DNA from: an uncultured Anaerolineales bacterium
GTDB taxonomy: Bacteria > Chloroflexota > Anaerolineae > Anaerolineales > UBA6663
Direction: 5' to 3'
NCBI GenBank assembly: GCA_937952305.1
Contig: CALFZO010000004.1
Coordinates: forward strand, 3,249-67,248
Length of the DNA stretch: 64,000 nucleotides
Below, in pieces: positions 40,701 to 45,623 of the stretch (the first letter of the stretch is position 1; every line of letters starts with the position of its first letter). Position numbers and translations under genes: made by a program. Under the pieces are notes generated by a model, which saw nothing but the letters and a program-made list of their open reading frames with translations, searched no databases and was not told the DNA's origin.

Positions 40701-41816
<1,116 letters not shown>

Positions 41817-44246: not shown

Positions 44247-44319
44247 GTCTTCCCCCCAAACCTATCTATCGACGCTCCGTAGAATAGTGTAGCTTAGGGC
44301 AAGCAGCGGCTTGCCCGCC

Positions 44320-44430
44320 GCGCTCGCTCGTTCGAGAAGGGCAAACCCGGTGAAAACCGGGGACGCAAAGCCATGGGTCTGTAGCCCGGGAGAAATCCGG
44401 GCCATGATCGCCAGGCTACCGAAGACGAGG
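44320..44430 (+). promoter_or_regulatory. cyclic-di-GMP-I (GEMM-I) riboswitch aptamer
   Basis: AAGGGCAAACCCGGUGAAAACCGGGGACGCAAAGCCAUGG...CCAUGAUCGCCAGGCUACCGAAG matches the Vc2 aptamer core (GGGCAAACC-stem/GAAA loop-GGGACGCAAAGCC...GGUUACC). Downstream, CGUCCU (44454-44459) can pair with AGGACG (44469-44474) and occlude the SD just before AUG 44475. Confidence 0.85.
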
Positions 44431-44474
44431 CTCCGCTCCCCGCACTGGGTCGGCGTCCTCGCAGGATAAGGACG

Positions 44475-45143
44475 ATGGTCCGCCGACTCCTCGCTTGCGC
44501 GCTTTTCCTGTCCGTCCAATTCGTGATCGCGTCCACGCCCGTGCAGGCCGACTCCGGCCAGGGCGCGGTCGAGTACAGCGTCTATCTGCCGCTCCTGACG
44601 CGCGAGGCCACCGCGGCCATGGCGCTGCCAGCCGAGCCCGGCTTCCCGTCGCTGCTGGACTTCACGGCGACGGTGGCGGGCGGCCCGGCCGACACCGTGA
44701 CCGGCGTGTATGTGTCCGAGGTCCTGGCCCTGCCGGTCATCCAGCAGCCGGCCGACAACTACGGCTACGTCTCTGAGCAGGTGGGGGTGGTCACGCAGTT
44801 CCGGCTGGCGGCCAGCTACGGCGTCACCGGTCTGCTGGCGCACAACTTTGCCTCCGGAGCCCTGTTCTTTGAGCTGGCGCCGGGGCAGCGCGTGCACGTC
44901 ATCCTGGGCGACGGCTCGGCGAAGGAGTACCAGGTGAGCGAGATCCTGCGTTATCAGGCCTTGCAGCCGTTCAGCACGGCCAGTGATTTTGTGGACCTGG
45001 CGACCGGCGAGCAACTCACGGCCGGCCAGGTGTTTGCGCGCGCGTACATGGGCGGCGACCAAGTGACGTTTCAGACTTGTATTGCGAGCGGCGGTATTGG
45101 GAGTTGGGGGCGGTTATTTGTGATCGCGACGCCGGTGGAGTGA
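44475..45143 (+). CDS. secreted sortase-like transpeptidase-fold protein
   Basis: Signal peptide MVRRLLACALFLSVQFVIASTPVQA. A His (LLAHNF), Cys (VTFQTCI, 79 aa later) and Arg (WGRLFVIA, 11 aa later) are spaced like the sortase catalytic triad. Confidence 0.55.
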   Translation: MVRRLLACALFLSVQFVIASTPVQADSGQGAVEYSVYLPLLTREATAAMALPAEPGFPSLLDFTATVAGGPADTVTGVYVSEVLALPVIQQPADNYGYVSEQVGVVTQFRLAASYGVTGLLAHNFASGALFFELAPGQRVHVILGDGSAKEYQVSEILRYQALQPFSTASDFVDLATGEQLTAGQVFARAYMGGDQVTFQTCIASGGIGSWGRLFVIATPVE

Positions 45144-45159
45144 GCGCCGCCCGGCGCAG

Positions 45160-45191
45160 GCGGGAGCCGAGTTGGCTCCCGCTTTTCATTT
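45160..45191 (+). terminator. intrinsic terminator
   Basis: GCGGGAGCC-GAGTT-GGCTCCCGC followed by TTTTCATTT. Confidence 0.8.
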
Positions 45192-45206
45192 AACCGAGCG
45201 GCGCCA

Positions 45207-45623
45207 TCAGGCCAACTGATCAGGCGCTGAGCGGTCAGCCAGGCGCCGCGCCTGGCTGCTGAGGTCGAGCATCCAGCCGCCAAGGGTGCAAGACAAGAGG
45301 ATGAGCACGCTGGGGGCAAACCACAGCCGGGCGAGGCCGGGGATTTCGGCGGGCAGGAACCGGATCAGGCTGAGCGCCCACAGGCCGGAAGCCAACCCCA
45401 CCCACAGGTGCGCGCGGCGCGCCAGCCAGGCGCTGGCCGCGCCAATCAGCACAGGCGGCGCCGCCAACAGGATGGCCGTCAGCGCCACTTTGGCCAGCTG
45501 CCAGGCAACACTGTCATCGGCGGCGCCGGCCGGCCAGAGCCCCGGAATGACCAGCCAGGCCGCGCGCCAGGCGCCGTAGCCGATCCCATTGCCGAGCAGG
45601 ATGGCCAGGAGGATGCGCGGCAT
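45207..45623 (-). CDS. hypothetical 4-TM membrane protein
   Basis: The hydrophobic helix pattern is the only evidence. It lies 30 nt downstream of mutS2 on the same strand. Confidence 0.45.
   Translation of the reverse strand: MPRILLAILLGNGIGYGAWRAAWLVIPGLWPAGAADDSVAWQLAKVALTAILLAAPPVLIGAASAWLARRAHLWVGLASGLWALSLIRFLPAEIPGLARLWFAPSVLILLSCTLGGWMLDLSSQARRLADRSAPDQLA

What the first reader, a model, noticed from the sequence alone, without database searches (positions are those of the whole stretch)
44320..45143. c-di-GMP-I riboswitch directly controlling a secreted sortase-like protein
The aptamer core is an excellent match to the Vc2 GEMM-I sequence: GGGCAAACC, a stem with GAAA-type loop, GGGACGCAAAGCC, and then GGCUACC. 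Downstream, a CGUCCU/AGGACG hairpin would bury the SD 1-6 nt before the AUG, which points to translational control. The regulated ORF has a signal peptide and a His...Cys...Arg arrangement (LLAHNF, TFQTCI, WGRLF) with sortase-like spacing. c-di-GMP riboswitches are known to control adhesins, pili and, in Clostridioides difficile, a sortase substrate and its protease. Direct riboswitch control of the transpeptidase itself would be a different wiring. The element sits immediately after a wall-polymer operon (GT4, TagA).
Basis: partly seen in the sequence, partly recalled or inferred. Interest (0 to 1): 0.68.

Follow-up and report, generated by a model that had tools for sequence, protein, structure and literature searches.

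The report
c-di-GMP riboswitch controlling a novel sortase
A standard c-di-GMP-sensing RNA switch sits directly in front of a gene for an uncharacterised secreted sortase-type enzyme, and this pairing recurs in about nine of ten related Anaerolineae (Chloroflexota) genomes, so the second messenger appears to control the surface-protein-anchoring enzyme itself.

Summary

- **Aptamer.** Window 44325-44428 (+) is a real c-di-GMP-I (GEMM-I) aptamer. Rfam gives 70.8 bits against a gathering score of 59. The best label is the variant RF03167, but the three ligand-contact nucleotides are canonical (G44340, A44367, C44419).
- **ORF.** The ORF 44475-45143 belongs to the curated NCBIfam family NF053836 'sortase_YLP' (220.7 bits, cutoff 125). 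It models confidently as a sortase fold, and His123, Cys202 and Arg213 are invariant.
- **Conserved link.** 69 of 80 species-level Anaerolineae loci carry the aptamer upstream of a homologue. All 127 aptamers found in 637 kb precede a sortase-family gene on the same strand.
- **Architecture.** Most loci have two units. The distal one has a classic terminator/antiterminator OFF design. The proximal one, the only one in the window, has a covarying helix that encloses the SD and the AUG.
- **Direction.** I infer that c-di-GMP represses translation. This is not proven.
- **Substrates.** Likely substrates, ending in IPxTG...YLPLVxR, lie next to the sortase in three related loci. None is in the window.
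- **WecG/GT4 neighbourhood.** It is lineage-specific gene order.

Verdict: a known riboswitch class with a new, conserved target. Moderate interest.

The parts
44297..44316 (+). 5' leader hairpin GGGCAAGC-AGCG-GCUUGCCC just upstream of the extended P1. Role unknown.
   Evidence: fold of 44247-44326: -24.8 kcal/mol, z -1.98. A hairpin at the same place but with a different sequence is present in the closest relative L088.
44325..44428 (+). c-di-GMP-I (GEMM-I) aptamer. Extended P1 is 44327-44334 with 44420-44429. P2 has a GAAA tetraloop at 44352-44355. Ligand-contact equivalents are G20=44340, A47=44367 and C92=44419.
   Evidence: Rfam 44331-44424, 70.8 bits against GA 59. Own covariance model 101.6 bits. 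Family-wide covariation: 96.6% of cells paired and 18 of 22 pairs with compensatory changes. Contact positions read from alignments A3/A4.
44425..44430 (+). Distal 3' strand of P1 (ACGAGG). It can pair either with the 5' P1 strand (CUCGU, 44326-44330) or with the pyrimidine tract at 44457-44462.
   Evidence: Invariant ACGAG in the six closest leaders. G:C to A:U covariation with the pyrimidine tract (ACGAGG/CCUCG in four sequences, ACGAGA/UCUCGU in two).
44447..44455 (+). 5' arm of the helix that encloses the SD and AUG (core GUCGGCG, 44449-44455).
   Evidence: Duplex with 44481-44489 is -17.4 kcal/mol and is present in all constrained folds. The equivalent helix covaries across 66 leaders. 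Same-locus against cross-locus energies: -11.85 against -8.10 kcal/mol, 0 of 5000 permutations.
44457..44462 (+). Pyrimidine tract CCUCGC. It acts as an anti-SD (UCCU pairs with AGGA) and mimics the 5' P1 strand.
   Evidence: In most other loci the equivalent tract (GCCUUUAUCGAA) is complementary to the aptamer's 5' strand: duplex at or below -12 kcal/mol in 45 of 65 loci, ending 11-13 nt before the AUG.
44463..44466 (+). Probable Shine-Dalgarno AGGA, 8 nt before the start codon.
   Evidence: Sequence. Predicted unpaired probability 0.05-0.27 in all folding states.
44475..45143 (+). Sortase_YLP ORF, 222 aa. Signal peptide or anchor at about aa 1-25. Disordered linker with a YLP box at aa 34-43 (nt 44574-44603). 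Catalytic domain aa 55-222, with His123 (44841-44843), Cys202 (45078-45080) and Arg213 (45111-45113).
   Evidence: NCBIfam NF053836, 220.7 bits against cutoff 125. AF2 model. Foldseek top 50 all sortases. Invariant residues. The identical protein occurs in four independent assemblies with the same gene order.
44481..44489 (+). 3' arm of the enclosing helix (core CGCCGAC, 44481-44487). It lies in codons 3-5 of the ORF.
   Evidence: In other loci this arm is codons 2-4, which explains the unusually conserved M-T/A-L-K/N N-terminus.
45158..45193 (+). Intrinsic-terminator-like hairpin plus T-run after the ORF. This makes riboswitch plus sortase a single-gene unit.
   Evidence: 12-bp stem, 8 G-C pairs, followed by TTCATTT.

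Best explanation
A canonical c-di-GMP-I riboswitch in the 5' leader controls translation initiation of a single-gene mRNA. The mRNA encodes a secreted or membrane-tethered cysteine transpeptidase of the 'sortase_YLP' family, which is specific to Anaerolineae.

**Proposed mechanism (inferred).**
- When c-di-GMP binds, the extended P1 helix (44327-44334 with 44420-44429) is locked.
- The pyrimidine tract at 44457-44462 is then free to pair with the SD (44463-44466).
- The helix 44447-44455:44481-44489 closes around the SD and AUG, so translation is OFF.
- Without ligand, the distal 3' strand of P1 (ACGAGG, 44425-44430) pairs with the pyrimidine tract. This releases the SD, so translation is ON.

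**Proposed enzyme function (inferred).** The enzyme processes surface proteins that end in an LPXTG-like IPxTG followed by a terminal YLPLVxR box. c-di-GMP would therefore set how much anchoring or processing enzyme is made.

**Shown:** aptamer identity, sortase fold and catalytic triad, the conserved riboswitch-sortase link, and covariation of the enclosing helix.

**Inferred:** the ligand, the sign of the switch, the substrates and the chemistry.
For: **Aptamer.** Rfam 70.8 bits. Canonical G20/A47/C92 (contacts defined in PMC4744006 and PMC6140456). Strong covariation.

**Protein.** NF053836 at 220.7 bits, and all 36 homologues hit it. AF2 core pLDDT above 90. Foldseek top 50 are all sortases at probability 1.0. 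H123, C202 and R213 are invariant.

**Link.** 127 of 127 aptamers in 637 kb precede a sortase-family ORF on the same strand. 69 of 80 loci and 73 of 107 sortase ORFs carry one. Rfam's curated thresholds confirm this on 39 loci. All five closest relatives have it.

**Platform.** The enclosing helix covaries. Complementarity between a P1 strand and the pyrimidine tract is specific to the same locus (-12.65 against -10.91 kcal/mol, 0 of 5000; shuffled -5.74) and covaries in the window's subgroup. The window leader has no terminator, and there is a terminator after the ORF.

**Sign.** In 52 of 54 tandem loci the distal unit has a terminator. Its 5' arm plus the adjacent upstream segment is the reverse complement of the aptamer's 3' strand (-20.7 against -11.9 kcal/mol for shuffled spacers). 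That is the textbook OFF layout. All seven functional class I switches in C. difficile are OFF (PMC6366702).

**Substrates.** Convergent neighbour genes in L086, L090 and L033 end in IPxTG...YLPL(V/I)xR. They have a signal peptide and either a Pro/Thr-rich stalk or adhesin-like domains.
Against: - Nested thermodynamic folding shows the SD buried whether or not the aptamer is enforced. It shows no ligand-dependent change in 69 leaders, so the switching step is not demonstrated computationally.
- The P1-strand/pyrimidine helix and the enclosing helix cross each other (pseudoknot topology). They might coexist, which could invert the logic.
- The window is one of 13 of 65 leaders that lack the strong pairing between the aptamer's 5' strand and the platform (-7.8 kcal/mol). 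Its proposed alternative pairing is only 5-6 bp, supported by one covariation among six sequences.
- Pfam's Sortase model is below threshold (16.4 against 26.6 bits). PDB sequence searches find no sortase.
- No substrate gene lies in the 64 kb window.
- YLP-box model scores are at or below their cutoffs.
- The promoter was not located.
Confidence: 0.62

Rival explanations
1. Same riboswitch and same gene, but an ON switch. In the apo state the P1-strand/pyrimidine helix and the enclosing helix stack into a pseudoknot that traps the SD and AUG. Ligand binding dissolves one stem and opens the site, so high c-di-GMP induces the sortase. That would fit the usual 'high c-di-GMP means more surface anchoring' picture.
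For: The two helices are adjacent (0-1 nt apart) and topologically crossing. An H-type pseudoknot is sterically possible. Nested folding cannot evaluate it. Class I riboswitches can be ON switches, for example Bc2 in B. thuringiensis (PMC6366702). Inducing an anchoring enzyme in the sessile state is biologically intuitive.
Against: The distal units of the tandem loci have an unambiguous OFF terminator/antiterminator layout, and opposite signs in one leader would be unusual. The pyrimidine tract is complementary both to an aptamer strand and to the SD, which is the classic anti-SD competition of OFF switches.
Confidence: 0.22
2. The aptamer senses a different or additional cyclic dinucleotide, as the RF03167 'GGC variant' label or cGAMP-type GEMM-Ib would imply, and not c-di-GMP.
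For: The best Rfam family is the variant RF03167. In related loci 16 of 54 distal aptamers have A at position 20, the signature of cGAMP or bispecific GEMM-Ib aptamers (PMC6140456).
Against: The window aptamer has G20, A47 and C92. The RF03167 consensus has G at position 47, and the window mismatches it there (alignment). All 127 family aptamers have A47 and C92. RF01051 and RF03167 labels alternate among near-identical sequences, which indicates competition between the models and not a distinct class.
Confidence: 0.06
3. The ORF has a sortase fold but acts mainly as a hydrolase or releasing peptidase, or on itself through its own N-terminal YLP box, and not as a wall-anchoring transpeptidase. 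Under an OFF switch it would shed surface proteins at low c-di-GMP, like LapG or ZmpI.
For: The sortase's own linker carries a YLP box that scores like the substrate tails (13.3 against 12.4-13.6 bits). At least 64 of 120 homologues have a YLP or IPxSG motif there. The OFF logic matches the ZmpI precedent (PMC6366702). The sorting tail is 'ultrashort', with no membrane-spanning segment.
Against: The catalytic triad and fold are those of transpeptidases. The linker is predicted disordered and is not docked in the active site (pLDDT below 50). There is no biochemical evidence either way.
Confidence: 0.25
4. The aptamer belongs functionally to the upstream GT4-WecG wall-polymer operon, as a 3' or internal attenuator of a longer transcript, and only incidentally precedes the sortase.
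For: Only 85 nt separate the WecG stop codon from the aptamer, and no sigma-70-like promoter was detected. The WecG-sortase order is kept in L086, L088, L089 and L090.
Against: None of the 80 species-level loci has WecG or GT4 nearby, yet 69 have the aptamer. The aptamer always tracks the sortase gene. The expression platform is physically built into the sortase SD and first codons.
Confidence: 0.05

Closest known systems
c-di-GMP-I (GEMM-I) riboswitch, Rfam RF01051 (for example V. cholerae Vc2, C. difficile Cd1)
   Same: Same aptamer architecture: P1, P2 with a GNRA tetraloop, and P3. Same ligand-contact nucleotides G20/A47/C92. It passes the Rfam clan threshold, its helices covary, and it sits in a 5' leader and controls an envelope-related gene.
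   Different: The target gene (a sortase-family enzyme) has not been reported. The platform is a translational design with a helix formed between the leader and codons 3-5. In relatives it is usually the second unit of a terminator-plus-translation tandem.
c-di-GMP-I-GGC variant, Rfam RF03167
   Same: It is the highest-scoring Rfam family for the window aptamer (70.8 bits), and overall sequence similarity is high.
   Different: The variant's diagnostic G at position 47 is absent. The window and all 127 relatives have A. The label therefore reflects model competition and not altered specificity.
C. difficile c-di-GMP control of sortase substrates (CD2831 and CD3246, class II ON) and of the releasing protease ZmpI (class I OFF)
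   Same: c-di-GMP riboswitches govern how surface proteins are displayed. A class I, probably OFF, switch controls an extracytoplasmic processing enzyme.
   Different: There the substrates and a metalloprotease are regulated, and the sortase is not. Here the sortase-family enzyme itself is regulated, and the candidate substrates seen in related loci have no aptamer.
Sortases of classes A-F (Pfam PF04203); NCBIfam NF053836 'sortase_YLP'
   Same: Sortase beta-barrel fold, a His...TxxTC...Arg triad with comparable spacing, and an N-terminal signal or anchor. Candidate substrates have an LPXTG-like IPxTG near the C-terminus.
   Different: Only 11-19% identical to solved sortases and below Pfam's threshold. 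The sorting signal ends in a short YLPLVxR box, not a membrane helix plus a basic tail. The enzyme carries a copy of that box in its own linker. No member has been characterised.
Tandem c-di-GMP riboswitches (for example the triple-tandem Bc3-5 of B. thuringiensis, PMC4759541 as cited in PMC12452182)
   Same: In relatives, two complete riboswitch units lie in series before one gene.
   Different: The window has a single unit. In relatives the two units use different platforms (terminator, then SD/AUG sequestration), and in 16 of 54 pairs they differ at ligand position 20 (A, then G).

Membership tests
c-di-GMP-I riboswitch (Rfam clan CL00126 / RF01051) | Covariance-model score at or above the curated gathering score | tested here: met
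   70.8 bits against GA 59 for RF03167. One further same-clan family also reached its GA, but its score is hidden by the tool. Near-identical relatives score 73-88 bits on RF01051, GA 35.
c-di-GMP-I riboswitch (Rfam clan CL00126 / RF01051) | Ligand-contact nucleotides G20, A47 and C92 (Vc2 numbering) | tested here: met
   G44340, A44367 and C44419. Contacts as stated in PMC4744006 and PMC6140456. Mapping the numbering onto the window rests on the invariant GCAAAC, GACGCAAAGC and ACCG blocks and on my recollection of the Vc2 sequence.
c-di-GMP-I riboswitch (Rfam clan CL00126 / RF01051) | P2 and P3 helices supported by covariation; GNRA tetraloop on P2 | tested here: met
   96.6% of cells paired against 25-44% when slid, and 18 of 22 pairs with compensatory changes. 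GAAA loop at 44352-44355. The tetraloop receptor was not examined.
c-di-GMP-I riboswitch (Rfam clan CL00126 / RF01051) | Binds c-di-GMP and changes gene expression | not testable with these tools
   Needs in-line probing or ITC, and reporter assays.
c-di-GMP-I-GGC variant (RF03167) | G in place of A at position 47 of the binding pocket | tested here: not met
   The window has A44367. The alignment shows a mismatch to the consensus G. 127 of 127 relatives have A. That 'GGC' names positions 20/47/92 is my reading of the model consensus and my memory of Weinberg et al. 2017, which was not retrievable.
GEMM-Ib cGAMP riboswitch | A at position 20 | tested here: not met
   The window has G44340. A20 does occur in 16 of 54 distal aptamers and 3 of 19 single aptamers of related loci.
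Sortase superfamily (PF04203) | Sortase beta-barrel fold | tested here: met
   AF2 mean pLDDT 84, above 90 over aa 60-222. Foldseek against PDB: all top 50 matches are sortases A, C, D or E, probability 1.00, E 3e-7 to 8e-6, TM 0.40-0.64 normalised by target.
Sortase superfamily (PF04203) | Catalytic His, Cys (TLxTC-type motif) and Arg | tested here: met
   H123 (LLAHN), C202 (TFQTC) and R213 (GRLF) are invariant in 36 homologues. Spacing is 79 and 11 residues, against 64 and 13 in S. aureus SrtA (own knowledge). The residue-level structural superposition was not inspected.
Sortase superfamily (PF04203) | Pfam model at or above the gathering score | tested here: not met
   16.4 bits against 26.6. 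PDB sequence and profile searches find no sortase. Membership rests on fold and motifs, that is, a remote relationship.
Sortase superfamily (PF04203) | Cognate substrates with a C-terminal sorting signal | tested here: inconclusive
   Candidates ending in IPxTG...YLPL(V/I)xR lie next to the sortase in L086, L090 and L033. None is in the window. NCBIfam motif scores are at or below their cutoffs.
Sortase superfamily (PF04203) | Transpeptidase activity dependent on the Cys | not testable with these tools
   Requires biochemistry.
NCBIfam NF053836 sortase_YLP | Whole-protein HMM score at or above the curated cutoff | tested here: met
   220.7 bits against 125. 36 of 36 aligned homologues hit it.

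The most novel reading that the evidence does not exclude
In Anaerolineae, cyclic-dinucleotide signalling is wired mainly through a dedicated two-tier RNA device. A terminator-type unit, often with A20 and so possibly responsive to cGAMP or bispecific, is followed by a translational G20 c-di-GMP unit. The device's sole target is a new class of sortase that recognises an 'ultrashort' C-terminal signal (IPxTG...YLPLVxR) and carries a pseudo-substrate copy of that signal in its own linker. The messenger would thus switch filament surface-protein anchoring or release on and off by controlling the enzyme and not the cargo.
Probability: 0.2. Interest if true: 0.75.

Novelty: new member of a known kind. 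Interest (0 to 1): 0.52.

Why it matters
c-di-GMP riboswitches are known to control adhesins, pili, flagella and, in C. difficile, sortase substrates and the protease that sheds them. Here the regulated gene is the sortase-type enzyme itself. The link is close to a rule across Anaerolineae, the filamentous Chloroflexota that are abundant in activated sludge and anaerobic digesters.

This gives the uncharacterised 'sortase_YLP' family its first functional context: cell-surface remodelling tied to c-di-GMP. It points to candidate substrates and an unusual short sorting signal. It also offers a compact system for studying two-tier riboswitch control (transcription, then translation), with a cultivated host available (Leptolinea sp. 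HRD-7, locus L018). If the OFF sign is right, it extends the 'low c-di-GMP means process or release surface proteins' logic of LapG and ZmpI to a third enzyme class.

Tried and rejected
1. **Two-state thermodynamic folding.** I folded the window leader with the aptamer enforced, unconstrained, and with P1 blocked. I also compared 69 leaders as platform alone against the full leader. SD accessibility did not depend on aptamer state (mean 0.51 against 0.54). This is inconclusive, because nested folding always keeps the aptamer and cannot represent the crossing helices.
2. **Aptamer 5' strand to platform pairing in the window.** It is strong in 45 of 65 loci but weak in the window (-7.8 kcal/mol). 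I replaced it with the pairing between the distal 3' strand of P1 and the pyrimidine tract seen in the window's subgroup.
3. **Functional link to the GT4/WecG operon.** Rejected: 0 of 80 loci share it.
4. **YLP-box substrates in the window or flanking the 80 loci.** For N-terminal boxes only the sortases themselves were found. C-terminal boxes were found only in L086, L090 and L033.
5. **PDB sequence and profile searches.** No sortase was hit, only chance matches to Fur and the ATP-synthase delta chain.
6. **Weinberg et al. 2017.** The paper on the RF03167 variant could not be retrieved.
7. **First search for related loci attempt.** It failed with the 36-sequence alignment and was redone with 12 sequences.
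8. **Promoter scan.** No sigma-70-like promoter was found upstream of the aptamer.
9. **The RF01051 score for the window.** It could not be displayed because the tool hides lower-scoring clan members.
Full report
**1. What is in the sequence**

Rfam's cmscan at gathering thresholds finds exactly one RNA family hit in the whole 64 kb window. It lies at 44331-44424 on the + strand, scores 70.8 bits with E 9.6e-15, and covers the full model. The named family is RF03167 (c-di-GMP-I-GGC), not RF01051. A second family of the same clan also passed its threshold, but the tool hides its score.

The RF03167 consensus reads GGACGC**G**AAGCC, while the window reads GGACGC**A**AAGCC and mismatches at that position (alignment). 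The three nucleotides that contact c-di-GMP in Vc2 are G20, A47 and C92 (PMC4744006, PMC6140456). They correspond to G44340, A44367 and C44419, so the pocket is canonical.

In related loci, RF01051 and RF03167 labels alternate between near-identical aptamers. All 127 relatives have A47 and C92. I therefore treat the variant label as competition between the two models.

**2. The gene**

The ORF at 44475-45143 encodes 222 aa.

- Pfam's Sortase model matches only weakly, at 16.4 bits against a threshold of 26.6.
- NCBIfam places it firmly in NF053836 'sortase_YLP, putative sortase', at 220.7 bits against a cutoff of 125. All 36 aligned homologues hit the same model.
- More than 1,000 homologues exist. 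Nearly all are unnamed or called hypothetical, and the few that carry an organism name are Anaerolineae.
- In 36 homologues of 43-62% identity, His123 (LLAHN), Cys202 (TFQTC) and Arg213 (GRLF) are invariant.
- An AlphaFold2 model built on this alignment has pLDDT above 90 over aa 60-222. It shows an N-terminal helix (aa 3-18) and a disordered linker at aa 24-50.
- Foldseek against the PDB returns only sortases of classes A, C, D and E among the top 50. Probability is 1.00, E is 3e-7 to 8e-6, and identity is 11-19%.
- Sequence-only searches of the PDB find no sortase, so the relationship is remote.

A strong terminator-like hairpin follows the ORF at 45158-45184 plus a T-run. The unit is therefore riboswitch, one gene, terminator. 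The identical protein and gene order occur in four independent sludge and bioreactor assemblies.

**3. The link is conserved**

I fetched 80 loci encoding relatives from one genome per species. All are Chloroflexota, and nearly all are labelled Anaerolineae or Anaerolineales.

- Rfam at curated thresholds finds c-di-GMP-I-clan aptamers upstream of the homologue in most of the 39 loci scanned.
- A covariance model built from 40 of them finds 127 aptamers in 637 kb. All are on the sortase strand.
- With a profile of the protein family, every one of the 127 aptamers is followed within about 700 nt by a sortase-family ORF. None occurs anywhere else.
- 69 of 80 loci have at least one aptamer, and two of the other 11 lack upstream sequence. 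73 of 107 sortase-family ORFs are preceded by one.
- Many loci hold two paralogues, and in those the upstream paralogue lacks a riboswitch.
- The five closest relatives of the window protein all have the aptamer. L088 has a single copy like the window, and the others have tandems.
- The aptamer helices covary strongly: 96.6% of cells are paired, 18 of 22 pairs show compensatory changes, and slid controls give 25-44%.

**4. Architecture and probable logic**

*Distal unit.* 54 aptamer pairs are tandem. In 52 of 54 spacers the distal aptamer is followed by a conserved hairpin GCGAGCCUGG...CCAGGCUCG plus a U-run. The segment UCUUCG-CG-AGCCUGG, which leads into and includes the terminator's 5' arm, is almost the reverse complement of the aptamer's 3' strand CCAGGCU-GC-CGAAGA. 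The duplex energy is -20.7 kcal/mol, against -11.9 for shuffled spacers. This is the textbook antiterminator layout of an OFF switch: a folded, ligand-bound aptamer leaves the terminator free to form.

*Proximal unit.* This is the only unit in the window, and it has a different platform. A helix forms between an arm about 25 nt upstream of the AUG and codons 2-5, and it encloses the SD and AUG.
- Same-locus duplex energies beat cross-locus ones (-11.85 against -8.10 kcal/mol, 0 of 5000 permutations).
- On a 66-leader alignment the 8 pairs are 72% paired, against 34-46% when slid. There are 67 double-sided changes against 31 expected (0 of 500 shuffles).
- This helix also explains the oddly conserved M-T/A-L-K/N N-terminus of the proteins.
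- In the window the helix is 44447-44455 with 44481-44489, at -17.4 kcal/mol.

*The switching element.* Immediately 3' of the upstream arm lies a pyrimidine tract that abuts the SD.
- In 45 of 65 leaders the tract (GCCUUUAUCGAA) is complementary to the aptamer's 5' strand UUCGAUAAAGGC, at or below -12 kcal/mol. Same-locus pairing beats cross-locus pairing at 0 of 5000 permutations, and shuffled platforms give -5.74.
- In the window's subgroup the tract (YCUCGY; window 44457-44462) is instead complementary to the distal 3' strand of P1 (ACGAGR; window 44425-44430). There is one G:C to A:U covariation among six leaders. The tract also mimics the 5' P1 strand.
- In both versions a P1 strand competes with the purine-rich SD for the pyrimidine tract.

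I therefore infer that ligand-locked P1 leaves the tract free to pair with the SD, inside the enclosing helix, so translation is OFF.

*Limits of this inference.* Nested folding shows the SD buried in all states, and no state-dependent change appears in 69 leaders. The two helices cross, so a pseudoknot with the opposite logic cannot be excluded. The more probable SD is AGGA at 44463-44466.

**5. What the enzyme may do**

NCBIfam also holds two tiny models for a 'YLP-box putative sorting motif': NF050076 and NF053834 'ultrashort_CTERM'.

Scanning all ORFs in the loci for such a box at the C-terminus found three genes convergent with and immediately downstream of the sortase:
- L086: ...FIPITGGFSLYLPLVVRSP*
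- L090: ...FIPVSGVYRLYLPLVIR*
- L033: ...GIPVTGGTVLYLPIIFN*

The first two have a signal peptide, a globular domain and a long Pro/Thr-rich stalk. The third is a 1,299-aa protein with beta-helix and cadherin-like domains. Their tails match the YLP-box models at or just below the cutoffs. The layout of signal peptide, domain, stalk and an LPXTG-like IPxTG is that of wall-anchored surface proteins, except that the tail is a short YLPLVxR box and not a membrane helix.

No aptamer precedes these genes, and no such gene lies in the window.

The sortase's own disordered linker carries the same box (aa 34-43, YSVYLPLLTR, 13.3 bits). Other subfamilies carry IPVSG or IPITG at the same place. Whether this is a pseudo-substrate, a self-processing site or a targeting motif is unknown. 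AF2 does not dock it in the active site.

**6. Context**

The GT4-WecG/TagA neighbourhood is shared only with the window's close lineage (L086, L088-L090; WecG 68-91% identical). It is absent from all 80 species loci, so it looks like inherited gene order and not a functional coupling.

**7. Comparison with what is known**

The RNA is an ordinary member of the c-di-GMP-I class.

The closest biological precedent is C. difficile. There, class II ON switches drive sortase substrates, and a class I OFF switch controls the shedding protease ZmpI. All seven functional class I switches there are OFF (PMC6366702).

I found no paper that reports a c-di-GMP riboswitch on a sortase gene, or any c-di-GMP riboswitch in Anaerolineae. 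The library is limited to open-access texts.

The protein family and the motif are already curated in NCBIfam as 'putative'.

**8. Verdict**

The finding is a new, conserved target for a known riboswitch class. It comes with a two-tier tandem design in relatives and a lead on an uncharacterised sortase system. It is not a new kind of mechanism.

Interest is moderate (0.52). The sign of regulation, the ligand and the enzyme chemistry remain to be tested.

Noticed in passing
Related loci, e.g. L005:3593-3694, L010:3592-3693, L017:1780-1881, L023:3592-3693, L036:3642-3739: In 16 of 54 tandem pairs the promoter-distal aptamer has A at ligand position 20 while the proximal one has G. T/G, C/G and G/A combinations each occur once. 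A20 is the signature of cGAMP-selective or bispecific GEMM-Ib aptamers (PMC6140456), so these tandems might read two different dinucleotides or two affinity ranges.
   Followed up: partly
L086:3373-4584 (-), L090:3280-4482 (-), L033:4777-8676 (-): Genes convergent with the sortase encode surface-protein-like products that end in IPxTG followed by a terminal YLPL(V/I)xR box. They are likely substrates that define an 'ultrashort' sorting signal. None has an aptamer.
   Followed up: partly
window 44574-44603 (ORF aa 34-43): The sortase's own disordered N-terminal linker contains a YLP box (YSVYLPLLTR) that scores like the substrate tails. Other subfamilies have IPVSG or IPITG at the same alignment position. 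It may be a pseudo-substrate or a self-processing site.
   Followed up: partly
Related loci, e.g. L006:2685-3395, L007:2768-3490, L026:2834-3469, L052:2841-3524: Many genomes have two sortase_YLP paralogues in tandem: an upstream copy with no riboswitch, then the tandem riboswitches and a second copy. This suggests one constitutive and one c-di-GMP-regulated enzyme.
   Followed up: partly
window 44247-44326: The short spacer between the WecG stop codon and the aptamer contains a block conserved with L088, including TAGTGTA at 44284-44291, which may be a -10 element. It also contains a stable hairpin at 44297-44316 whose structure, but not its sequence, recurs in L088. No consensus promoter was detected.
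   Followed up: partly
window 45207-45623 (-): A 138-aa hydrophobic ORF with no family match lies between the sortase and MutS2. It is conserved at 55-61% identity in the same position in L088 and L089.
   Followed up: no
L085:3368-5314 (-) and L085:776-1951 (-): In one close relative the riboswitch-sortase unit is flanked by a PAS-GAF-HD(HD_5) protein, possibly an HD-GYP-type c-di-GMP phosphodiesterase, and by a histidine kinase.
   Followed up: no
window 40704-41816 (+): An N6/N4 DNA methyltransferase with a C-terminal RAMA domain lies upstream of the LiaF-TM/GT4/WecG genes. It is unrelated to the finding.
   Followed up: no
L002, L004, L019, L030, L032, L034, L040, L058, L080: Nine loci have a sortase_YLP gene but no aptamer, even with search filters off for L002 and L004. 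L004 is a fairly close relative of the window organism (MutS2 75% identical), so the riboswitch has been lost or was never gained in some lineages.
   Followed up: partly
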